From: Candidatus Rokuibacteriota bacterium
GTDB lineage: Bacteria; Methylomirabilota; Methylomirabilia; Rokubacteriales; CSP1-6
Length of the DNA: 64,000 bases
Assembly: GCA_003220675.1 (NCBI GenBank)
Contig: QHTD01000155.1
Location: forward strand, 8,782-72,781
Reading direction: 5' to 3'
The notes beneath the pieces are model-generated. The model saw only the letters and a list, made by a program, of their open reading frames with translations. It ran no database searches and was not told the DNA's origin. The stretch's first letter is position 1; every line of letters begins with the position of its first letter. Shown here one piece after another: positions 30,458 to 40,140 of this stretch. Made by a program: the position numbers and the translations under genes.

Positions 30458-31207
30458 CTACGGAGACGGCTGCGCGACGCAGATCGCGGTCACAACCACG
30501 TCATTCGGGCTTGCCTGCGGGTTGAAGACACCGCCGCGCCACCCGGCCCGCGCCCCCACCGTCTCGGGACCGTTATCGGTGACGTTCATCCCACCCTCGG
30601 TAAAGACGCCGCCGCTCATGGGAAATTTCCCCGCCGGGCACGGAGCGAAGACGCTCTTGCGGGAGAACGGAAGCACGGAGTCCCTCACGGACTCAACCGT
30701 CAGCCCCGACAGGCCGCTCGGCCCTTGTGGACCGGGCGGCCCCTGCGGGCCGGCAAGACCCGCTGGCCCCGGCTGTCCTGCGCCCTCTATGCCTTGGGGA
30801 CCCTGTGGGCCTGGGGGGCCAGGTGGCCCCGGAAACCCCGGGAGCCCTGGAGCCCCGACGGCGCCGAGCGTCACCTGGAAGGGCAGCGAATAGACCTGCA
30901 CCGGGACCGGCACCGGCTCGGAACGAATCACGAGCAGCCAGTACGAGCCGCGAGCGATCCCCGGCGGCAGCATCGCCACGATGGCGGTGTCGCTGAACGT
31001 CGTGACGACCAGCGAGACATCCGCCAGCTTGACGGTGGGCGTTGTGGTGCCGAAGCTCGTGCCGGTGATGTGAAGGGATTGCAGCGCATCGTCCGCCGCC
31101 GCTTGCGTGATGACAGGCGGCACCAGGACGAGCTGAGCTGACACGCGAGCGGGTGCCGCAACCAGCGCGAGTAGTGCGAGCACGACGACGAGCGCAGGGC
31201 ATGTCAT
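30458..31207 (-). CDS. secreted collagen-like (Gly-X-Y repeat) protein with IPT/TIG-like N-domain
   Basis: ATG 31207 with RBS GAAGGAGGG. Signal peptide [75 protein letters not shown] (about 17 triplets), followed by a globular C-terminal domain. Confidence 0.8.
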
Positions 31208-31390
31208 GCGACGCCCTCCTTCCCCAACGAACGGTGTGCGCGTCGACGCCAAACGCTGCCACGTCGGCACGTCGAGGGGGAGCGCACGGCGCGATGACGG
31301 GACGCGGCGACAGCGTCGTGTCCCACGGTGTGCTCCGACTCGCCGCCCCGGTGGGGATGGTCGGTCCGCACCCGAGGCGTTCGTCTCACC

Positions 31391-32812
31391 CTAACCGCCA
31401 AGCGCCCGCGCCGTTTCCTGGATCTTCGTCCACGCCGCCTCGACGTGGCGGTGCCCGGTCGTGGTTTGACCGATCGCGAGGCGGATCGCGTAGGCGCCGT
31501 GCACGCGGTTCTGCGTCAGATAGAGCTCACCGCTGTCGTTCAGCGCCTCGAGCAACCGCTCGTTCAGCCGGTCGAGCTGGCTCGGATCCTCCACGCCGCG
31601 CGGGTGGTAGCGAAAGTTCACGAGCGCGAGGCTCCGCGGCGCCATCAGCTCGAAGTCGGGCGCCGCCTGGATCCACTCGGCGGCCTCGCGCGCGAGCGCG
31701 ATGTGCGCGGCGACCATCCGCTGGAGCTCGGCCACCCCGTAGGCGCGGATCACGAACCAGAGCTTCAGCGCGCGGAAGCGGCGCCCGAGCTGGACACTCC
31801 AGTCGCGGTAGTCGATGACGTGGCCGCGCTCGCGCGTCTTGAGGAAGGCGGGCAGGATCTCGAGTGTCCGCACGAGAGCGTCCGGGTCGCGCACGTAGTG
31901 CGCGGAGCAGTCGAAGTTGGTGAAGAGCCACTTGTGAGGGTTGAACACGAAGCTGTCCACGTGCTCGATGCCGTCGAGCATCCCGCGGTGCTCGGGGAGG
32001 ATCAGCGCGCTCCCCGCCCACGCCGCGTCCACGTGGAGCCAGACGTTGTGGCGCCGGCACACCTCGCCGATCGGGCGCAGCGGATCCAGCGCGCCGACGC
32101 CCGTCGTCCCGAGGGAGGCCACGACACAGACCGGGGTGGCACCGGCCGCCAGGTCCTCGCGGATCGCGGCCTCGAGCGCGTCCGGTCGCATCGCGAACCG
32201 GGCGTCCACCGGGATCTTGCGGACGTTGGCGCGGCCGAGCCCCGCGATCTTGGCGCCCTTCTCCGTCGCCGAGTGGGTCTCCGTCGAGCAGTAGACGCGG
32301 AGTGGCCCGACGGCGCCGACGCCCTCCTCGTTCGCGCGCCAGCCGGTCGCGCGCTCGCGCGCGGTGAGGAGCGCGCAGAGGATCGCGCTCGAGGCGGAGT
32401 CCTGGATGACGCCCGTGAAGCCCTCGGGCAGGCCGGTCATCTGGCGAAGCCAGTCGAGGACGCGCGTCTCCAGCTCGGTCGCGGCGGGCGAGGTCTGCCA
32501 GAGCATGCACTGGGCGCCGAGCGTCGCGGTGAGCATCTCGGCGAGGACCGACGGCGGGCTCGAGTTCGCCGGGAAGTAGGCGAAGAAGCTCGGGTGCTGC
32601 CAGTGCGTGATCCCCGGCAGCACGACCGAGGTGAAGTCGGCGAAGATCGTCTCCATCGGCTCGCCGCGCTCGGGCGGCGTGAGCGGGAGCTTCGCGGCGA
32701 CCTCTCCGGGCTTGACCTGGGCGCGCACGGGATAGCGCTCGACCTCGGCCAGGTAGTCGGCCATCCAGTCGACGAACGCGTGGGCGTGGCGGCGGAAGTC
32801 CTTGGTGTCCAT
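31391..32812 (-). CDS. pyridoxal-dependent aromatic-L-amino-acid/tyrosine decarboxylase (group II)
   Basis: HWQHPSFFAYFPANSS, LHVDAAWAGSALILPE, SFVFNPHKWLFTNFDCS (PLP-Lys). Confidence 0.9.
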   Translation of the reverse strand: MDTKDFRRHAHAFVDWMADYLAEVERYPVRAQVKPGEVAAKLPLTPPERGEPMETIFADFTSVVLPGITHWQHPSFFAYFPANSSPPSVLAEMLTATLGAQCMLWQTSPAATELETRVLDWLRQMTGLPEGFTGVIQDSASSAILCALLTARERATGWRANEEGVGAVGPLRVYCSTETHSATEKGAKIAGLGRANVRKIPVDARFAMRPDALEAAIREDLAAGATPVCVVASLGTTGVGALDPLRPIGEVCRRHNVWLHVDAAWAGSALILPEHRGMLDGIEHVDSFVFNPHKWLFTNFDCSAHYVRDPDALVRTLEILPAFLKTRERGHVIDYRDWSVQLGRRFRALKLWFVIRAYGVAELQRMVAAHIALAREAAEWIQAAPDFELMAPRSLALVNFRYHPRGVEDPSQLDRLNERLLEALNDSGELYLTQNRVHGAYAIRLAIGQTTTGHRHVEAAWTKIQETARALGG

Positions 32813-32952: not shown

Positions 32953-33252
32953 GTGACGCTCCAGCGTTCGCTCGTTCTCCTACTCATGGGCGCGATGGTG
33001 CTGCTCGCGCCCCTCGCCTATGCCAGTCCGCCCGATCCCGGCTGGATCGCCGGCTTCTGGGACAACGGCGACTACGACGACGTCGTTCTGCTGGCGACGT
33101 CCAGCGTCGGCACCACGGACGCTCACCTGCCTTGGCACACGATGTCCGCCGCAGTCGTCATCGCTTCCGTGTCCGCGCCAGACGAGAGCCTGCTGTCCGC
33201 TTGCCCGCTCTCGTCGTGGCACACGCGCGCCCCTCCCGCCGCCTCCGCCTGA
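32953..33252 (+). CDS. small secreted hypothetical protein (PDPGW...DYDDVV motif)
   Basis: Signal peptide MTLQRSLVLLLMGAMVLLAPLAYA, then SPPDPGWIAGFWDNGDYDDVVLL. Confidence 0.5.
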   Translation: MTLQRSLVLLLMGAMVLLAPLAYASPPDPGWIAGFWDNGDYDDVVLLATSSVGTTDAHLPWHTMSAAVVIASVSAPDESLLSACPLSSWHTRAPPAASA

Positions 33253-33397
33253 CGTACCCGCTCCGCGTGCCTCGCGCCCGCTGCGTCTGCGCGTAGCGGA
33301 GCCGCGGGATCCATCGACTCGTCTTTGCTCGGGCAAGAGAATGCCGCGTGAAGACTCGTGGCTTCTCAGGTGGCGGTTCACGACAAGGAGGTTCTCC

Positions 33398-34723
33398 ATG
33401 CCGCGGAAGAACGCGCTCACGCTCTCTCTACTTCTCATCGTTGCTGTTCCCATCCTCCTGCTTCCCGCCGGATCGGTCAGCGCCGATGAGGACCAAAGAG
33501 GGGCGGTCAAGCTTCTTACAACCGTCCCCATCCCGACGTCACTGGTCCCCCTCCGAGCCTTTGATATCAGCTGGCTCGACCCGGACAGCCAGCTCTACTA
33601 TCTCGGCGATCGTTCCAATAAGAGCGTCGACGTCGTCGACGCTAGGACGAATATATTCTTGAGACACATCACTGGGGGGTTCAAGGGGGTCGTCTTTAAG
33701 GCTGGTCCCGGTGGAGTAGGTCAGGTGGCGGACAACGACAAATCCGGGCCCAATGGCGTCGTAGTGTCCGGACACTTCCTCTTCGTGACCGACGCCCCCA
33801 GCAGGGTGGTAACCATCGACCTCAGGACAGATCAAATTGTCCTCGGCGGCGACGTGTCCACAGGCGGAACGGATGGCAACCGTGCCGATGAACTCGCCTT
33901 CGACCCGCAGGATCGGCTCCTCCTTGTCGTGAATAACGCCGACGACCCGCCGTTTGCCAGCCTGATCAAGGTCAATGCGGACGGAGCTTTGACAGTAAAC
34001 CAAAACGAATGCAGTACATCGGTTCACCCGCCTTGCAGAATCACGTTCAAGAATTTTGGTCCTAACAAGGACAAAACTGCAACCAATGGCGCAGAACAAC
34101 CGGTGTGGGAGCCCAAGACCCGCAGGTTTTATATCTCGATACCGGAAGTGAACGGCGTGACCTCCGACGGAGCGGTCGCGAAAATCAATCCGCATACTGG
34201 CGCCGTAGAGGCGACGTTTCCTGTGGAGCTCTGCCAACCTGCGGGGCTCACCGTCGGTCCAAACCAGGATCTGCTCCTCGGATGCAGCGTAGTCTTCGAT
34301 ACTGCGGGGAATGCGTGGGATTCGAAGAATCCGAATTCCATCGCGGCGCCCACGCAAATAATCATGGACGCGAACACGGGCACAATCGATGCGAGCGTTG
34401 CCGGCGTTGGGGGATCCGACGAAGTCTGGTTCAACCCCGGCGACCGACGCTACTACACCGCCTCCCGAAACAACCCGACAGGCCCGGTGCTGGGCGTAAT
34501 CGACGCCGAAAGCCAAACCCTGATCCAGATTGTTCCGACGGTTAACACCGCGGGCAAGACAACTGACCCGCCGTTCCCCGCGGGGACCTCGCACTCGGTG
34601 GCTGTGGACCCGCGTAATAACCACGCATTGGTGCCCTTGCCGGCCAACAACGTCTTCCCCAACTGCTCAAACGGCTGCATCGCGGTGTTCGGGACGCCGA
34701 GGGGAGACCACGACGAGGATTGA
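33398..34723 (+). CDS. secreted beta-propeller repeat protein (YVTN/YncE-like)
   Basis: RBS AAGGAGG and a signal peptide. Repeated strand motifs (LYYLGDRSNKSVDVVD, LFVTDAPSRVVTIDL, LLLVVNNADD). Markedly lower GC than the flanks. Confidence 0.7.
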   Translation: MPRKNALTLSLLLIVAVPILLLPAGSVSADEDQRGAVKLLTTVPIPTSLVPLRAFDISWLDPDSQLYYLGDRSNKSVDVVDARTNIFLRHITGGFKGVVFKAGPGGVGQVADNDKSGPNGVVVSGHFLFVTDAPSRVVTIDLRTDQIVLGGDVSTGGTDGNRADELAFDPQDRLLLVVNNADDPPFASLIKVNADGALTVNQNECSTSVHPPCRITFKNFGPNKDKTATNGAEQPVWEPKTRRFYISIPEVNGVTSDGAVAKINPHTGAVEATFPVELCQPAGLTVGPNQDLLLGCSVVFDTAGNAWDSKNPNSIAAPTQIIMDANTGTIDASVAGVGGSDEVWFNPGDRRYYTASRNNPTGPVLGVIDAESQTLIQIVPTVNTAGKTTDPPFPAGTSHSVAVDPRNNHALVPLPANNVFPNCSNGCIAVFGTPRGDHDED

Positions 34724-34774
34724 GATCGTCGTCGGGCCTGCCACCTCGTCACAGCGAGGCGCGATTGACATCCG

Positions 34775-35491
34775 TCATGGAACCGCTACGCGAGCCTCCC
34801 GATGGGCGGTGGCGGCGGCCGCGTAGCCCACGAGGAGCGGGTGGGGCCTGGATGCCGTCGAGCGGGACTGCGGCAGGAACAGGGTGGCGAGGAAGAACGG
34901 ATGATCGGGAATCTCGACGATCCTGACCTCGCCCGCGCCGCCCAGCCCGCTTACCCGGAGTCCGCCGGCCTCGAGCAGTCGGTGGTAGTCCGGGTTGACA
35001 CCGTAGTTGCAGTAATAGTCCTCGGTCGCCTCGGTAACGCCGTAGAGCGCCGAGGCGCGGCTATCGGGGAGCACGAAGACCGTCTGCGGCTGCCCGACGA
35101 GCGAGCACGCGAGCGGCGTGATGACGAGCCGCCGGGCACTGGGCGCCGTCTCGGCGTGGTCGGCGTCTCGGAACCCGAGAACGTTGCGCGCGAACTCGAC
35201 GATCGCGTGCTGGAAGCCGCCTCAGGTACCGACGAGGGGAACTCCCCGTTCCCGCGCGTAGCGGATCGCCGAGAGCGCGCCGTCCATGCTGCGGTACGGA
35301 CTCGCCGGTGCGATCCAGATTCCGTGGTACGCAGCGAGTCGCTTCTCGGGCTCGTCCTCGATCGCGTCCGTCGGCACCCACTCGAAGGGGAGCCGAACAT
35401 GGTCGAGCGCCTCGTTCGTCAAGCGATGGGTAGGGTTCTTCGGATTGAAGTCGCCCACGACTCCGATTAAAGCGCTCATGTCCCGCGACAT
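34775..35491 (-). CDS. CTP-synthase-C-terminal-type class I glutamine amidotransferase with in-frame TGA (candidate selenocysteine) at the nucleophile position
   Basis: ORFs 35222..35491 and 34775..35074 share one frame, and read-through of TGA 35224-35222 gives 238 uninterrupted codons. The TGA sits in RERGVPLVGT-U-GGFQHAIVEFARNVLG (compare PyrG GICLGMQ..IEFARNV). The ATG is 1 nt after the livM stop. Confidence 0.75.
35186..35210 (-). promoter_or_regulatory. candidate SECIS-like stem-loop 11 nt downstream of the in-frame UGA
   Basis: GCACGCGA-UCGUCGAGU-UCGCGCGC gives 7 pairs plus one A/C mismatch and a 9-nt loop containing GU. The spacing resembles that of the E. coli fdhF SECIS. Confidence 0.4.
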
Positions 35492-35492
35492 C

Positions 35493-36416
35493 CTAGCACG
35501 CGCGCCTGGCGAGCGTGCGCAGGCGCGCCGCCGCCTCCACGAGCCCGCCCGGCAGGAGCAGAACGATCGTGATGAACAGCGCGCCGAAGATCAACAGGTG
35601 GAAGTCCACCCAGCGGATCGCCAGGTACTCCTTGAGGAAGACGTAGAAGATCGCGCCCAGCACCGGGCCGTGGACCGTGCCGACGCCGCCGATGAACGTG
35701 ATGAGGAGGGCGTCGAAGGTCCAGTGCGGCCCGAAGGGGTGCGCAGGGTAGTAGCTGATGTGGTAATAGGCGAAGAGCCCGCCCGCGAGCCCGGCGAGCG
35801 CCGTCGAGAGCACCAGGGCCAGGAGCTTGAGCCTGAGCGTGCCGACGCCGCTGGCCTCGGCCGCCTCTTCGTCCTCGCGGACCGCCTGCATGCCGAGGCC
35901 GGCCCGCGAGCGCTCGAGGGCCGCCACGACGCCGACGGCCACCGCCGCCAGCGCGAGCGCGAAATAGTAGCGGTCGGCGAGGCGGTAGGCGCCGATCGTC
36001 GCCGTCGGCAGCGTCGAGACCTCGGGCAGCACGTTGCCGACGGTGATGCGCAAGATTTCGCCGAGCGCGAGCGTGCCGATGGCGAAGTAGGCGCCTCGGA
36101 GACGGAAGGCGACGGCGCCGACGAGCAGCGCGAACGCGGTCGCGGCCAGCGCGCCCAGCGCCGCCCCCGCGAGCACCGGCCACTCGGCGATCCAGAGCGT
36201 GCGCGTGACGAGGGCGCCGAGGCCGAAGAACGCCGCGTGGCCGAGGTTGATCTGGCCGGCGTAGCCGGCGACGACGTTCCACGACTGGGCGAGCGCCACC
36301 GAGAGGAGCACGAGGAAGAGGAAGTTCAGCACGTCGTCGCGCCGGACGACGAGCGGCACCGCCGCCAGGGCGGCCAGCGCCGTCACGCCGAGCGCGAGCC
36401 ACCCGCGACGGCTCAT
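35493..36416 (-). CDS. livM: branched-chain amino acid ABC transporter permease
   Basis: The ATG overlaps the livH stop (ATGA). AGYAGQINLGHAAFFGLGA, REDEEAAEASGV. Confidence 0.9.
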   Translation of the reverse strand: MSRRGWLALGVTALAALAAVPLVVRRDDVLNFLFLVLLSVALAQSWNVVAGYAGQINLGHAAFFGLGALVTRTLWIAEWPVLAGAALGALAATAFALLVGAVAFRLRGAYFAIGTLALGEILRITVGNVLPEVSTLPTATIGAYRLADRYYFALALAAVAVGVVAALERSRAGLGMQAVREDEEAAEASGVGTLRLKLLALVLSTALAGLAGGLFAYYHISYYPAHPFGPHWTFDALLITFIGGVGTVHGPVLGAIFYVFLKEYLAIRWVDFHLLIFGALFITIVLLLPGGLVEAAARLRTLARRAC

Positions 36417-37279
36417 CGCGCGAAGAGCCCCCGGGGCCGTGCGACGAGCACGGCCAGGAAGATGACGAGGCCGACGACCTCGCGGTACGGCCCGCCGAAC
36501 GCGAACGCGCTCGCCGCCTCCGCGAGGCCGAGGACGAGACCACCGACGAAGGTGCCGAGCATCGAGCCGAGCCCGGCGAGGACGACTACGATGAGCGCCT
36601 TCAGCGTCCACTCGAGCCCGATGGACGGGCTGATCGAGTAGCCGACGCTCACGAGCGTCCCCGCGGCGCCGGCGAGACCGGTGCCGATTGCGAAGGCAAG
36701 GAGGTAAGCGCGCCGGACGTCGATGCCGGTGAGCGCCGCGGCCTCCCAGTCCTCCGCGGTCGCGCGGATCGCCCGCCCCCAGCGCCAGCGCTGGAGCAGG
36801 AGGTGGAGCGCGCCGATCAGCGCGAAGGCGAGGACGAGGCTCGCCAGGCGGACGAGGGGAATCGCGATGGGGCCGAGGGAGAGGACGGCGCCGGCGTAGG
36901 TGGTCGTGATCGAGCGCTCGTCCGCCGTCCACAGGCGCACGGCCAGAGCGTGCGTCGCGAGCGCCAGTCCGAAACCGATCAGCAGCGAGTTCTTGATACG
37001 CGTCTCCTCGTGCGCCCGCACGACGAAGGCGAAGAGGCCCCAGTAGAGCAGCACGCCGAACGCGAGCGCGCCGGCGACGACGAGCGGAAGCGCGAGCAGC
37101 GGATCGAAACCCAGGAGTACCCAGAGCCAGAAGGCGCCGTAGCCGCCCAGCATGATCAGCTCGCCGTGGGCGACGTTGAGGACCTTCAAGACGCCGAAGA
37201 CGAGCGAGAGGCCGGCCGCGGCGAGGCCGTAGAGGCCGCCGACGAGGAGCCCGAGCACCAGCTGCTGGACGAGGATCAT
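36413..37279 (-). CDS. livH: branched-chain amino acid ABC transporter permease
   Basis: MILVQQLVLGLLVGGLYGLAAAGLSLVFGVLKVLNVAHGE, a typical LivH N-terminus. Confidence 0.9.
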   Translation of the reverse strand: MILVQQLVLGLLVGGLYGLAAAGLSLVFGVLKVLNVAHGELIMLGGYGAFWLWVLLGFDPLLALPLVVAGALAFGVLLYWGLFAFVVRAHEETRIKNSLLIGFGLALATHALAVRLWTADERSITTTYAGAVLSLGPIAIPLVRLASLVLAFALIGALHLLLQRWRWGRAIRATAEDWEAAALTGIDVRRAYLLAFAIGTGLAGAAGTLVSVGYSISPSIGLEWTLKALIVVVLAGLGSMLGTFVGGLVLGLAEAASAFAFGGPYREVVGLVIFLAVLVARPRGLFAR

Positions 37280-38016
37280 GGTAGCGGGGGCCGCGAGCCC
37301 GGCAAACTCGCGAGCGGGCCGAGATAGGCGCGGCGCACGTGCGGATCCTGGAGCAGCGCGGGGCCGCTGCCCTCGCCCGCGACGCGCCCGGCCTCGAGGA
37401 TATAGGCGCGGTGGGCGAGACCGAGGGCGGCCTGGACATTCTGCTCGACGAGGAGGATGGACACGCCGCCCCGGTTGATTTCGCCGATGACGCCGAGGAT
37501 CGTCTCGACGATACGCGGCGCGAGACCGAGGGAGGGCTCGTCGAGGATCAGCAGGCGCGGCGCGGCCATCAGCGCGCGTCCGATCGCCACCATCTGCTGC
37601 TGGCCGCCCGAGAGCGTGCCGGCGAGCTGGCGCCGCCGCTCGCGCAGGATCGGGAAGATCTCGTAAATCCGCTCGCGGCCTCGGCCGAGCCCCGCACGCG
37701 CGTGGGGCGTGAAGGCGCCCAGGTCCAGATTCTCCTCGACGGTCATCCCGCCGAAGAGCCGCCGTCCCTCGGGCACGACCGCGAGGCCGCGCTCGACGAT
37801 CGCGTGCGGCAGGAGGCCCACGATCTCCGCACCGCCGAAACGGATGCGCCCGGCGCGCGGCACCAGGAGCCCCGTGACGCAGCGGATGAGGGTCGTCTTC
37901 CCTGCCCCGTTCGGGCCCAGGAGCGCAACGATCTCGCCGGGGCCGACCCGCAGGGTGACGCCCGAGAGGGCAAGGAACGGCCCGTAGGCGGCCTCGACCG
38001 CCTCGACCTCAAGCAC
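37276..38016 (-). CDS. livF: ABC transporter ATP-binding protein (LivF type)
   Basis: Walker A GPNGAGKTT, signature LSGGQQQM, Walker B LLILDEPS. Confidence 0.9.
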   Translation of the reverse strand: MLEVEAVEAAYGPFLALSGVTLRVGPGEIVALLGPNGAGKTTLIRCVTGLLVPRAGRIRFGGAEIVGLLPHAIVERGLAVVPEGRRLFGGMTVEENLDLGAFTPHARAGLGRGRERIYEIFPILRERRRQLAGTLSGGQQQMVAIGRALMAAPRLLILDEPSLGLAPRIVETILGVIGEINRGGVSILLVEQNVQAALGLAHRAYILEAGRVAGEGSGPALLQDPHVRRAYLGPLASLPGSRPPLP

Positions 38017-38749
38017 GCCGCGCGCCCCCGGCTCCCGTGCCGAGATAGACGTCCACGACGGTCGGGTCGGCGGCGACGGCGTCCGGCGGTCCTTCGGCGA
38101 TCTTCTCGCCCGCGCTCAGCACGATCACCCGGCGCGAGAGGTCGAGAAGCGCCCAGACGATATGCTCGACCATGAGGATCGTCACGCCTTCCCGCTGGAG
38201 CCGCCGCAACAGCACCATCACGCCCTCCGTCTCGACGGGGCTGAGGCCGGCCATCAGCTCGTCGAGCAGCAGGAGGTGCGGCGCGGTCGCGAGCGCGCGC
38301 GCCAGCTCCAGGCGCTTGCGATCCATCAGCGTGAGCGACGCGGCTGGCACGTGCCCGCGGCCACCGAGGCCGACGAGCGCGAGCAACCGTTCGGCCTCGG
38401 CGGCGGCCGTCGCGCGGCGCTCGCGCGCGCGGCCGTAGAGGCGACCGACCAGCACGTTCTCGAGCGCGGAGAGCCCGGCGAACGGCCGGACGTGCTGAAA
38501 CGTGCGCGTGATGCCCTCGGCGCAGACGCGGTGGGGCGACCAGCCCGTGATGTCGCGGCCGGCCAGGCGGATGCGCCCGGCGTCCGGACGGAGCGCGCCG
38601 GTGATCAGGTTGAAGAGAGTGGTCTTCCCCGATCCGTTGGGGCCCATGACCCCGACGAGCTCGCCCTCGTCGACGGTGAAGCTGACTCCGCTGACCGCGC
38701 GGACGCCGCCGAAGGCCTTGGAGACACCCTCCAGTTCGAGGAGCGCCAA
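38009..38749 (-). CDS. livG: ABC transporter ATP-binding protein (LivG type)
   Basis: GPNGSGKTTLFNLITG, GITRTFQ, LLLLDELMAGL. Confidence 0.9.
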   Translation of the reverse strand: MALLELEGVSKAFGGVRAVSGVSFTVDEGELVGVMGPNGSGKTTLFNLITGALRPDAGRIRLAGRDITGWSPHRVCAEGITRTFQHVRPFAGLSALENVLVGRLYGRARERRATAAAEAERLLALVGLGGRGHVPAASLTLMDRKRLELARALATAPHLLLLDELMAGLSPVETEGVMVLLRRLQREGVTILMVEHIVWALLDLSRRVIVLSAGEKIAEGPPDAVAADPTVVDVYLGTGAGGARRA

Positions 38750-38764: not shown

Positions 38765-39946
38765 TCACCGGCTCGCGAAGGGCGGCGCCGGGTAGGCGAG
38801 CTTCGCCGTTGCGGAGTCCCTCGGCCACACCAGCTCCTGCTTGCCGTTGAGCCACTGGACGAACACGGCGTTGACGATCCCCGTGCCGTCAGCGCGGAAC
38901 TTGACGGGGCCGATGACCGTCGTCATGTCGGTCGCCGCGATCGCGTCACGGATCCGGTCGCGGTCGAGCGAGCCTGCTCGGCCGATCGCGTTGGCGAGGA
39001 TCTGCACGCACGCGTAGGCGGGGCCGGCGATCGGATCGGCGGGGCGGCCGACCTTCTTCTCGTGCGCCTCGTTCAGCTCTTTCACTCCCGACGCTCTGAT
39101 CGCGTGGTGCCAGCCCGGCCCGAGCACGACATAGTCGCCGTCCTTGCCGAGGTTCTTCGCCCACACCGGTGGATCGGGCGCGCGGATCAGCATCGTCAGC
39201 TTCGGGTTGTAGCCGAGCTCCTTCATCTGCTTGACGATCGTCATGCCATCGGGCGGAGTCGGCAGTCCGAACACGACGTCGGCGTTGGCGCTCTTGGCCT
39301 TCAGAATGAGGTCGGAGAAGTCCTTGGCGCCGGGCGCGTACTCGGCGTTGACGACCACCTGGTAGCCGGCACCCTTGCCGGCCTCGGTCCACGCCGTCGC
39401 CATCTCGCGCCCCCAGTCGGTCTTCTCCTGGAAGATCGCCGCGGTCTTCGGACGCTCGCCGGCGGGAATGGAGGCGAGGAGATCCGCGGTGCCCTGGCGA
39501 ATATCGGGCGACTTCCAGAAGGGCGAGAAGAGATAGCGGAAGCCCTGCTGGTGGATCTTGTGGAGCGCGAAGGCGACGCCGAGGTAGGGCGTCTTGTTCT
39601 TCTCGGCGACCGACGCGGCGGCCGCGTGCAGGTCGGAGCCGAACCCGCCGAGATAGGCGACGACGCCCTGTGCGGCCAGCGTCTCGAGGCGGCTCACGGT
39701 CTTGGTGGCGTCCGACTCGTCGTCCAGCAGCGCGAGCTCGAGGGCCATCTTCTTGCCGCCGACGGCGACGCCGCCGGCGGCGTTCACGTGTTCGACGGCG
39801 ATCTCGTAGCCGGCCCGGACCTGCGCGCCGCCGCCGCCGTAGCGTCCGGTGAGAGGCACAACGGCGCCGACCTTGATAGTCTGGGCGGCCGCGAGCGCCG
39901 GCCAGGCGACGAGCAATGCGAGCAGCGCGACTCGGAGAGCTTTCAT
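38765..39946 (-). CDS. livK: ABC transporter periplasmic amino-acid-binding protein (LivK/LivJ family)
   Basis: ATG 39946 with RBS AAGGAGG. Signal peptide MKALRVALLALLVAWPALAAA, then IKVGAVVPLTG. Confidence 0.85.
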   Translation of the reverse strand: MKALRVALLALLVAWPALAAAQTIKVGAVVPLTGRYGGGGAQVRAGYEIAVEHVNAAGGVAVGGKKMALELALLDDESDATKTVSRLETLAAQGVVAYLGGFGSDLHAAAASVAEKNKTPYLGVAFALHKIHQQGFRYLFSPFWKSPDIRQGTADLLASIPAGERPKTAAIFQEKTDWGREMATAWTEAGKGAGYQVVVNAEYAPGAKDFSDLILKAKSANADVVFGLPTPPDGMTIVKQMKELGYNPKLTMLIRAPDPPVWAKNLGKDGDYVVLGPGWHHAIRASGVKELNEAHEKKVGRPADPIAGPAYACVQILANAIGRAGSLDRDRIRDAIAATDMTTVIGPVKFRADGTGIVNAVFVQWLNGKQELVWPRDSATAKLAYPAPPFASR

Positions 39947-40140
39947 TGACGCCTCCTTGAGCGTGTCAACGCCTCTTCGGCGGGTGGGCGCGCACGGCCT
40001 CTTCATTGACCGCGGTGCCGCAGCTCGGACCCGTCGGCAGGAGGAGATGTGATCTTGAGGAAGTCGGGCGATTTTTCATGGCGGCCAATATAGCAGCACA
40101 GGCCTCGCCACGAACAGGGACCTCGAGAGGCGCACGCGAA

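What the first reader, a model, noticed from the sequence alone, without database searches (positions are those of the whole stretch)
34775..35491. In-frame TGA at the catalytic-cysteine position of a CTP-synthase-type glutamine amidotransferase: candidate selenoprotein appended to the Liv ABC operon
- **One frame.** ORF-track pieces 35222..35491(-) and 34775..35074(-) lie in one frame. Translating through the TGA at 35224-35222 gives 238 uninterrupted codons. The stretch the ORF caller skipped reads GGFQHAIVEFARNVLGFRDADHAETAPSARRLVITPLACSLVGQPQTVFVLPDSRA.
- **Position of the TGA.** It falls in RERGVPLVGT-[TGA]-GGFQHAIVEFARNVLG. That is the place of the nucleophile Cys in the GICLGMQ..IEFARNV elbow of the PyrG class I amidotransferase domain.
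- **Hairpin.** Eleven nt downstream a stem-loop can form (GCACGCGA-UCGUCGAGU-UCGCGCGC, 35210-35186). This spacing is reminiscent of bacterial SECIS elements.
- **Operon context.** The ATG is 1 nt after the livM stop, so the protein would be the sixth cistron of the amino-acid uptake operon. That hints it processes the imported amide or amino acid.
- **Prior knowledge.** I recall a Cys/Sec family related to the PyrG C-terminal region from genome annotation names, but I know of no biochemical characterisation.
Basis: partly seen in the sequence, partly recalled or inferred. Interest (0 to 1): 0.85.

Follow-up and report, generated by a model that had tools for sequence, protein, structure and literature searches.

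The report
Known selenocysteine amidotransferase-like protein, Rokubacteria copy
The in-frame TGA is real and almost certainly encodes selenocysteine at the nucleophile position of a small CTP-synthase-like amidotransferase-fold protein, but this Cys/Sec family is already catalogued (NCBIfam NF004836), so this is an ordinary, biochemically uncharacterised member.

Summary
Window 34775..35491(-) is one 238-codon frame with a single in-frame TGA at 35224-35222. That codon aligns with the nucleophile Cys of the PyrG glutaminase domain.

The TGA is neither an error nor a pseudogene lesion.
- 52 species-level genomes, mostly Rokubacteria/Methylomirabilota, carry TGA in the same column; 21 more distant homologues carry TGC/TGT.
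- At least 120 metagenome contigs hold the same TGA-plus-hairpin sequence.
- Synonymous-codon entropy falls to 0.13 bits over codons +4..+12 after the TGA, against 1.03 bits elsewhere.
- That stretch forms a hairpin meeting all four published bacterial SECIS constraints.

[quoted passage not shown] The family was reported as a selenoprotein in 2025 and listed in a 2026 review, so it is not new.

- The whole family, Cys forms included, lacks the PyrG His/Glu of the catalytic triad (here Leu206/Gln208). "Glutamine amidotransferase" is therefore a fold assignment, not a demonstrated activity.
- Liv-type operon adjacency is lineage-specific, not family-wide.

Sec machinery could not be checked because it is not in the window.

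The parts
34775..35491 (-). Gene for the 238-residue CTP-synthase-C-terminal-related selenoprotein (Sec at residue 90). An alternative start is the ATG at 35479. The terminal stop is TGA at 34777-34775.
   Evidence: Translation. NF004836: 303 bits against a cut-off of 260, model positions 3-227 of 228. AlphaFold2 pLDDT 95, pTM 0.92. Foldseek TM 0.86-0.90 to CTP synthase glutaminase domains.
35222..35224 (-). UGA codon read as selenocysteine, in the nucleophile column G-T-U-G-G-F-Q-H.
   Evidence: Aligned to the Cys of GxCxGxQ in 3nva, 1vco and 9kao. TGA in 53 of 53 clade members, TGC/TGT in 21 outgroup homologues.
35176..35224 (-). Full SECIS-like element. The lower stem pairs UGAGG (including the UGA) with CYUCG. 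An internal loop follows, then the upper hairpin.
   Evidence: 97.6% of cells are paired. Pair 5-45 alternates G-C (20 sequences) and G-U (19). The Val codon at that position uses only GTT/GTC. Codons +15 and +16 also have low entropy.
35186..35210 (-). Upper SECIS hairpin GCACGCGAUC-GUCGA-GUUCGCGCGC. The apical loop GUCGA lies at 35200-35196, 21 nt after the UGA.
   Evidence: -10.2 kcal/mol. Meets all four bSECIS constraints quoted in PMC13188914 Fig. 2. Codons +4..+12 are invariant at synonymous sites: 0.13 against 1.03 bits.
35493..36422 (-). LivM/UrtC-like ABC permease gene. Its TAG ends 1 nt before the selenoprotein ATG. The start coordinate is approximate.
   Evidence: NCBIfam LivM 92 bits and UrtC 84 bits, both below the curated cut-offs. 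GC3 0.97.
36413..37279 (-). LivH/UrtB-like ABC permease gene.
   Evidence: UrtB 159 bits, LivH 101 bits, below cut-offs.
37276..38016 (-). LivF/UrtE-like ABC ATPase gene.
   Evidence: LivF 235 bits, UrtE 213 bits, below cut-offs.
38009..38749 (-). LivG/UrtD-like ABC ATPase gene.
   Evidence: LivG 186 bits, UrtD 169 bits, below cut-offs.
38765..40006 (-). Periplasmic substrate-binding protein (Peripla_BP_6), first gene of the operon. Its ligand is unknown.
   Evidence: Pfam PF13458 191 bits. LivJ/K subfamily only 98 bits against a cut-off of 477.

Best explanation
The gene encodes a genuine selenocysteine-containing member of the NF004836 family. This is a free-standing, 238-residue copy of the CTP-synthase glutaminase (class I amidotransferase) fold.

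**How the UGA is read (inferred).** The UGA at 35224-35222 is decoded as Sec by SelB and tRNA-Sec, recruited by the SECIS hairpin that starts 11 nt downstream. The apical loop GUCGA begins 21 nt after the UGA. A lower stem pairs the UGA itself.

**Where Sec sits (shown by alignment).** Sec occupies the nucleophile elbow. The rest of the canonical Cys-His-Glu triad is absent from the whole family, so the selenol or thiol must work with a rebuilt pocket. By homology to PyrG the pocket is lined by the invariant residues Q94, H95, H112, E114, C129, C161 and H217.

**Most likely chemistry (inferred, about 0.5).** Attack on an amide or gamma-glutamyl carbonyl forms a seleno-ester acyl-enzyme, which is then hydrolysed or transferred. 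The low pKa of Sec would partly compensate for the missing general base.

**Operon role (weakly inferred).** In this organism the gene is translationally coupled as the sixth and last cistron of a Liv/Urt-type ABC uptake operon. It may therefore act on the imported solute.
For: **Family membership.**
- NF004836 scores 303 bits against a cut-off of 260.
- NCBI already names Cys-form relatives (P0066, P0115) with the family name.

**Nucleophile column.**

**Fold.** pLDDT 95; TM 0.86-0.90 to CTP synthase glutaminase domains.

**TGA conservation.**
- TGA in 52 species-representative genomes, TGC/TGT in 21 outgroups.
- The Sec forms make one clade.
- At least 120 metagenome contigs carry the exact 39-nt TGA-plus-hairpin pattern.

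**Both sides of the TGA are translated.** Columns conserved at the amino-acid level show about 1 bit of synonymous codon variation upstream and from codon +20 onward.

**RNA constraint.**
- Codon entropy is 0.13 bits at +4..+12 against 1.03 bits elsewhere. Only 3% of other columns are as low.
- Cys forms vary at the same sites.
- The hairpin fits the bSECIS consensus.
- The divergent Sec forms L047, L050 and L052 carry re-registered hairpins with G-U-containing loops.

**TGA is still a stop codon here.** livK and this gene itself end in TGA.

**The phylum uses Sec.** A Methylomirabilota MAG was predicted to have 63 selenoprotein genes (PMC13188914). Sec-containing [NiFeSe] hydrogenases are reported in the phylum (PMC13582414).

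**Published status.** Reported as a new selenoprotein family in PMC12013277 and listed as NF004836, motif GxUxG, in PMC13188914.
Against: - No selA, selB, selD or tRNA-Sec in the window or in about 1.8 Mb of related loci. The machinery of this genome is unverified.
- The hairpin's free energy is not better than shuffled sequence.
- Strict covariation is minimal, because the element is almost invariant.
- The PyrG triad His and Glu are replaced by Leu206 and Gln208. Across 121 family members these positions are V/L and Q. The PyrG Gly-Gly oxyanion motif and the RHRHRYE Arg residues are also replaced. Glutaminase-type chemistry is therefore not demonstrated.
- Most uncharacterised selenoproteins are expected to be redox proteins (PMC13188914).
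Confidence: 0.85

Rival explanations
1. The protein is a selenoprotein on an amidotransferase fold but is not an amidohydrolase. Sec90, with the invariant C129/C161 and H22/H95/H112/H217, forms a redox (selenenyl-sulfide) or metal/chalcogen-binding centre. The glutaminase scaffold would have been repurposed.
For: - The triad His/Glu, the oxyanion Gly-Gly and the substrate-carboxylate Arg of PyrG are all lost family-wide.
- Three Cys/Sec and four His residues are 98-100% invariant in 121 sequences.
- C161 and H112 align to pocket-lining PyrG segments.
- The review states that most uncharacterised selenoproteins probably serve redox functions.
Against: - Q94 and E114 are retained. Their PyrG counterparts contact glutamine (my own knowledge of class I amidotransferases, not tested here).
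- No CxxU/UxxC motif is present.
- No redox partner gene is conserved next to the gene.
Confidence: 0.3
2. The UGA is recoded, but as cysteine rather than selenocysteine. Decoding would be SECIS- and SelB-dependent through a tRNA-ReC-type tRNA.
For: tRNA-ReC-like genes occur in about 17% of genomes carrying Sec-type hydrogenases. They decode UGA as Cys when a SECIS is present (PMC13582414). Sequence alone cannot separate the two outcomes.
Against: No such tRNA occurs in the window or the loci scanned. The phylum is reported to be rich in selenoproteins. Keeping TGA and a 27-nt invariant element in more than 50 species merely to insert Cys seems uneconomical.
Confidence: 0.05
3. The TGA is a true stop: a split or decaying pseudogene, or an assembly error.
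For: Public gene callers annotate two fragments (85 aa and 99 aa, the latter named "hypothetical protein", for example PYP65722.1). Sec machinery could not be shown.
Against: - The same TGA occurs in 52 independent species genomes and at least 120 metagenome contigs.
- The 48 codons between the TGA and the next possible start are among the best conserved in the protein and show synonymous-only variation.
- No in-frame start codon follows the TGA.
Confidence: 0.02

Closest known systems
[quoted passage not shown] This is the "glutamine amidotransferase (COG0504, PyrG)" selenoprotein of Xiao & Zhang 2025 (deep-Sep, PMC12013277), listed in Zhang et al. 2026 (PMC13188914).
   Same: - Full-length match above the curated cut-off.
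- The same GT[U/C]GGFQH motif (GxUxG in the review).
- The same Cys/Sec alternation.
- A SECIS immediately downstream of the UGA.
   Different: - Nothing differs at family level.
- The published Sec example is from Desulfosediminicola (Desulfobacterota). Here the Sec clade is centred on soil Rokubacteria/Methylomirabilota, where deposited MAG annotations split the gene into two hypothetical ORFs.
- The papers read here do not comment on the missing His/Glu or on gene context.
Glutaminase (class I amidotransferase) domain of CTP synthase PyrG, for example PDB 3nva, 1vco, 1s1m.
   Same: - Fold: TM 0.86-0.90, 26-32% identity.
- Nucleophile elbow G-x-C/U-x-G-x-Q.
- A conserved Glu aligned to the PyrG N-S-T-E segment.
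- The C-terminal (G)HP(L) motif.
   Different: - No synthetase domain (238 aa, aligned to PyrG residues ~289-542).
- Triad His becomes Leu/Val and Glu becomes Gln.
- PGGFG becomes P(G/A)SPY.
- RHRHRYE becomes (D)YYCN(Y/F)G.
- GGTMRLG becomes (A)CSL(A/V)G.
- PyrG equivalog models score far below their cut-offs (122 against 308; 117 against 463).
Bacterial SECIS elements: E. coli fdhF/fdnG type and the bSECISearch consensus.
   Same: - Located in the coding sequence directly after the UGA.
- The UGA is paired in a lower stem.
- Apical loop of 5 nt beginning G-U.
- 21-nt spacing.
- MFE -10.2 kcal/mol.
   Different: The sequence is unrelated to the E. coli elements. The upper stem carries two 1x1 mismatches. 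SelB binding has not been tested.
PuuD gamma-glutamyl-GABA hydrolase and other stand-alone class I amidotransferase-like hydrolases (Pfam PF07722).
   Same: Stand-alone single-domain proteins with the Cys-nucleophile elbow. Some homologues carry a precomputed PF07722 hit, and one is named this way by NCBI.
   Different: PuuD is a much weaker structural match (E 3e-12, TM 0.67) and keeps the canonical Cys-His-Glu triad (my own knowledge, not tested here).

Membership tests
[quoted passage not shown] | Whole-protein HMM score at or above the curated equivalog cut-off (260 bits), with near full-length coverage. | tested here: met
   303 bits, E 9e-91, residues 9-227 on model positions 3-227 of 228.
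[quoted passage not shown] | Cys or Sec in the G-T-[C/U]-G-G-F-Q-H motif (GxUxG). | tested here: met
   TGA at residue 90. The column is C in 120 of 121 homologues and TGA in 53 clade members.
Bacterial selenoprotein gene (SelB/SECIS-dependent UGA recoding) | In-frame UGA at a position where homologues have Cys, with conserved coding sequence on both sides. | tested here: met
Bacterial selenoprotein gene (SelB/SECIS-dependent UGA recoding) | [quoted passage not shown] | tested here: met
   Loop GUCGA (5 nt), 8-pair stem, 21 nt spacing, -10.2 kcal/mol. Supported by a synonymous-site entropy trough.
Bacterial selenoprotein gene (SelB/SECIS-dependent UGA recoding) | selA, selB, selC (tRNA-Sec) and selD present in the same genome. 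| not testable with these tools
   None found in the 64-kb window or in about 1.8 Mb of related loci. The rest of the genome is not available. Only phylum-level literature supports Sec use.
Bacterial selenoprotein gene (SelB/SECIS-dependent UGA recoding) | Selenium demonstrably incorporated at the UGA position. | not testable with these tools
   Needs 75Se labelling or mass spectrometry.
Class I glutamine amidotransferase (PF00117) / PyrG glutaminase domain | Flavodoxin-like amidotransferase fold with the nucleophile at the strand-helix elbow. | tested here: met
   PF00117 32.8 bits against 22.8. Foldseek TM 0.86-0.90 to CTP synthases. In the model, a strand at 86-88 is followed by a helix at 92-103.
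Class I glutamine amidotransferase (PF00117) / PyrG glutaminase domain | Catalytic triad His and Glu (the H-P-E motif in PyrG). | tested here: not met
   Aligned residues are L206-P207-Q208. In the family they are V/L (118 of 121) and Q (114 of 121).
CTP synthase (PyrG; TIGR00337, NF003792) | N-terminal synthetase (amidoligase) domain and an equivalog score above the cut-off. | tested here: not met
   Only PyrG positions ~293-532 are matched. Scores are 117 against 463 and 122 against 308 bits.
Liv/HAAT-type ABC uptake operon with the selenoprotein as an accessory enzyme | Conserved co-occurrence of the enzyme gene with the transporter genes across the family. | tested here: not met
   - Same-strand operon only in the window, L001 and near-identical metagenome contigs (L086, L131, L145).
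- A different Liv-type operon (26-47% identity) lies convergent downstream in one sister subclade.
- There is no Liv neighbour in the remaining Sec loci or in any of the 21 Cys loci.

The most novel reading that the evidence does not exclude
The NF004836 family is not a glutaminase. The CTP-synthase amidotransferase fold would have lost its His/Glu/oxyanion apparatus and gained an invariant Cys/Sec-Cys-Cys plus four-His constellation. Sec90 would then perform chemistry unknown for this fold: redox cycling through a selenenyl-sulfide, metal or chalcogen handling, or seleno-ester-driven acyl transfer rather than hydrolysis. A soil-abundant Rokubacteria clade would have fixed Sec for that purpose.
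Probability: 0.3. Interest if true: 0.7.

Novelty: already known. Interest (0 to 1): 0.35.

Why it matters
- **Annotation.** The Rokubacteria/Methylomirabilota copies are split into two "hypothetical" ORFs in deposited MAGs. They should be merged and named as selenoproteins.
- **Biology.** The family is a rare case of Sec at what looks like an acyl-enzyme nucleophile rather than a classical redox motif. It also lacks the canonical triad, so its chemistry is open.
- **A practical handle.** The Sec clade is common in soil metagenomes and carries an almost invariant 39-nt TGA-plus-SECIS signature. That signature can be used to find it.
- **Limit.** None of this changes the fact that the family and its selenoprotein status are already in curated databases and in the literature.

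Tried and rejected
- **Rfam.** Gathering thresholds on the window and on L001/L036 gave no hits.
- **ARAGORN.** No tRNA in the window. Two odd calls, in L001 and L036, were not supported by Rfam and are treated as false positives.
- **Sec machinery by tblastn.** E. coli SelA, SelB and SelD against the window, 80 genome loci and 120 metagenome loci gave only weak PurM-superfamily-like SelD hits in L040 and L044 and nothing else.
- **Neighbour clusters sized like SelA/B/D.** They turned out to be acyl-CoA dehydrogenase, a substrate-binding protein, an F420-dependent LLM oxidoreductase and an ABC permease.
- **Free-energy z-scores for the hairpin.** Not significant in this G+C-rich context, so stability alone was dropped as evidence.
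- **Strict covariation.** Only one double change was seen, because the element is nearly invariant.
- **Promoter and terminator scan of the operon.** Uninformative.
- **Exact look-up of the substrate-binding protein** to locate the source contig. Not on record.
- **Gln-to-Glu-to-GABA pathway idea.** The PLP decarboxylase at 31391-32812 is on the same strand, but a convergent gene separates it from the operon, and L001, the only other GTDB genome sharing this operon, has no decarboxylase hit in its ~3.4 kb of downstream flank. It does lie at the same distance in the near-identical contigs L028, L127 and L145.
- **Active-site distances.** Model coordinates are not exposed by the tools, so they could not be measured.
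- **Literature search for PyrG triad residue numbers.** No hits.

Full report
**1. The observation**

Window 34775..35491 on the minus strand reads as one frame of 238 codons plus a terminal TGA. The only internal stop is TGA at 35224-35222, in RERGVPLVGT-[TGA]-GGFQHAIVEFARNVLG. The window is 69% G+C, and real genes there have GC3 of 0.84-0.97. A scan for TGA codons flanked on both sides by coding-like composition found only this site and one ordinary gene boundary. The ATG at 35491 follows the TAG of the upstream permease gene by 1 nt. Public gene callers usually choose the second ATG, at 35479.

**2. Identity of the protein**

[quoted passage not shown] The score is 303 bits against a curated cut-off of 260, over essentially the whole model. 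The true CTP synthase models score far below their cut-offs. Pfam sees only a weak class I amidotransferase match.

An AlphaFold2 model built from 18 sequences has pLDDT 95 and pTM 0.92. Its best structural neighbours are all CTP synthase glutaminase domains, at TM 0.86-0.90. PuuD is far behind. Sequence and profile searches against solved structures align the TGA with the Cys of G-x-C-x-G-x-Q in 3nva, 1vco and 9kao.

**3. Is the TGA real and translated?**

- A scan of one genome per GTDB species returned 80 related loci.
- 52 of them, at 58-85% protein identity, carry TGA in exactly this column. 21 more distant ones carry TGC or TGT.
- Most TGA loci come from Candidatus Rokubacteria/Methylomirabilota MAGs. 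A few come from bins labelled Anaeromyxobacteraceae, Dormibacterota, Chloroflexi, Gaiellaceae or Bacillota.
- In a neighbour-joining tree the Sec forms make one clade, with the Cys forms outside.
- In a codon alignment of the 53 Sec genes, amino-acid-conserved columns on both sides of the TGA show about 1 bit of synonymous codon entropy. This is the signature of a translated sequence under purifying selection.
- TGA still terminates genes here, including this one, so a change of genetic code is not the explanation.
- A pseudogene or an assembly error is effectively excluded.

**4. The SECIS element**

Codons +4..+12 after the TGA (CAG CAC GCG ATC GTC GAG TTC GCG CGC) have a mean codon entropy of 0.13 bits, against 1.03 bits elsewhere. 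Only 3% of other columns are that low. Both four-fold degenerate Ala codons in the stretch are GCG in 98-100% of sequences. Cys-form homologues vary freely at the same sites.

It has 8 pairs with two 1x1 mismatches, the apical loop GUCGA, and an energy of -10.2 kcal/mol. A lower stem pairs UGAGG with CYUCG. Its one frequently variable site alternates C and U opposite a G: 20 G-C and 19 G-U pairs.

The element meets all four constraints of the published bacterial SECIS consensus: loop size, a leading G, 21-nt spacing, and MFE (PMC13188914 Fig. 2).

Two caveats apply. The folding energy is not better than that of shuffled G+C-rich sequence. Classical covariation is almost absent, because the element is nearly invariant. 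The three most divergent Sec forms (L047, L050, L052) have different but equally placed hairpins with GU-containing loops.

**5. Sec machinery**

No tRNA, no Rfam family and no SelA, SelB or SelD homologue was found in the window, the 80 genome loci or the 120 metagenome loci.

The literature places Sec use in the phylum. A Methylomirabilota MAG was predicted to carry 63 selenoprotein genes. Sec-type group 4 hydrogenases occur in Methylomirabilota. The hydrogenase paper also notes that a UGA with a SECIS can be read as Cys through tRNA-ReC. I keep this as a minor rival.

**6. What is already known**

- Xiao & Zhang 2025 (deep-Sep, PMC12013277) reported a "glutamine amidotransferase (COG0504, PyrG)" selenoprotein in Desulfosediminicola ganghwensis. 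It had both TGA-containing and Cys-containing homologues elsewhere.
- Zhang et al. [quoted passage not shown]
- NCBI already applies the name to Cys-form MAG proteins.
- I found no biochemical characterisation.
- The window's gene is an ordinary member of a catalogued family.
- In deposited MAGs the Sec-form gene is split into an 85-aa and a 99-aa "hypothetical protein".

**7. What the protein may do**

The family is not a canonical glutaminase. Where PyrG has the triad H-P-E, this protein has L206-P207-Q208. Across 121 family members the two positions are V/L and Q, in Cys forms as well as Sec forms.

Three other PyrG motifs are also replaced:
- P-G-G-F-G (oxyanion) becomes P-(G/A)-S-P-Y.
- R-H-R-H-R-Y-E becomes (D)-Y-Y-C-N-(Y/F)-G.
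- G-G-T-M-R-L-G becomes (A)-C-S-L-(A/V)-G.

Invariant in the family instead are H22, W38, Y66, R80, C/U90, Q94, H95, E99, R102, H112, E114, C129, S130, E157, C161, R190 and H217. By homology several of these lie on pocket-lining segments. Model coordinates are not exposed by the tools, so this could not be measured.

My preferred reading, at about 0.5, is a selenol or thiol nucleophile forming an acyl-enzyme on an amide or gamma-glutamyl substrate, with a non-canonical base. The main alternative, at about 0.3, is a redox or metal centre built from the Cys/Sec/His set. This fits the general expectation that uncharacterised selenoproteins are redox proteins.

From my own knowledge, not tested here: semisynthetic selenosubtilisin favours aminolysis over hydrolysis. 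That makes acyl transfer rather than hydrolysis a plausible consequence of having Sec at this position.

**8. Gene context**

In the window the gene is the last of six co-directional, tightly packed genes:
- substrate-binding protein, 38765-40006;
- two ATPases, 38009-38749 and 37276-38016;
- two permeases, 36413-37279 and about 35493-36422;
- the selenoprotein gene.

All transporter genes match Liv and Urt models below the equivalog cut-offs, so the ligand is unknown. The next gene downstream is convergent, so the operon ends with the selenoprotein gene.

The same operon is seen only in L001 and in near-identical metagenome contigs (L086, L131, L145). A sister subclade has a different Liv-type operon (26-47% identity) lying tail-to-tail just downstream: 11 genome loci at about +0.5 kb, two more at about +3.3 kb, and 35 metagenome contigs. 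Other Sec loci and all 21 Cys loci have no Liv neighbour. In actinomycetes the conserved neighbour is a divergent LysR-type regulator. The Liv association is therefore recurrent within one Rokubacteria lineage but is not a family property. It supports a functional link only weakly.

**9. Verdict**

- Novelty: already known at family level.
- Interest is modest. The remaining value lies in the uncharacterised chemistry, the missing triad, and correcting MAG annotations.

Noticed in passing
window ~33320-34860 (gene on + strand within ORF 33020..34723): A 1.5-kb stretch immediately downstream of the selenoprotein gene is only about 50-75% identical to contig L028, while both flanks are 97-100% identical. 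G+C drops to 55-64%. The stretch encodes a convergent protein of about 440 aa with a signal-peptide-like N-terminus and repeated beta-propeller-like strands. It has no Pfam or NCBIfam hit. The two alleles are about 60% identical, which looks like a strain-variable allele under replacement or diversifying selection.
   Followed up: partly
whole NF004836 family; window residues 204-208 (about 34868-34882): All 121 family members examined, Cys forms included, lack the PyrG triad His and Glu (V/L-P-Q instead of H-P-E). They share an invariant set of three Cys/Sec and four His residues. The selenoprotein papers read here do not mention this.
   Followed up: partly
P0002 (JGI protein, 65% identical): One public homologue has Trp at the Sec/Cys column (ATWGGFQH). 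It is most likely a TGA-containing gene translated by a pipeline that read TGA as Trp.
   Followed up: no
L041 and L049 (long-read Rokubacteria MAG contigs): Their matches span 682 nt, which is not a multiple of three, and they sit on long branches in the tree. This suggests frameshift errors in these assemblies rather than real divergence.
   Followed up: no
window 30458..31270 (-): ORF with a collagen triple-helix repeat and an IPT/TIG domain.
   Followed up: no
window 31391..32812 (-): Group II PLP-dependent decarboxylase (Pyridoxal_deC, 369 bits). It is on the same strand as the operon but separated from it by the convergent variable gene. It is present in the near-identical contigs L028, L127 and L145; L001 has no hit in the ~3.4 kb downstream of the gene that is held.
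   Followed up: partly
L028 (QHVD01000533.1), labelled Gemmatimonadetes: This 2.6-kb contig is 97-100% identical to the window outside the variable stretch, whereas all other close relatives are Rokubacteria. It is probably a mis-binned contig.
   Followed up: no
L070 and L079 (Streptomyces, Planobispora): ORFs of 555-566 aa extend upstream of the amidotransferase-like domain on the same strand. They may be over-extended ORFs in high-G+C DNA or N-terminally extended forms. This was not examined.
   Followed up: no
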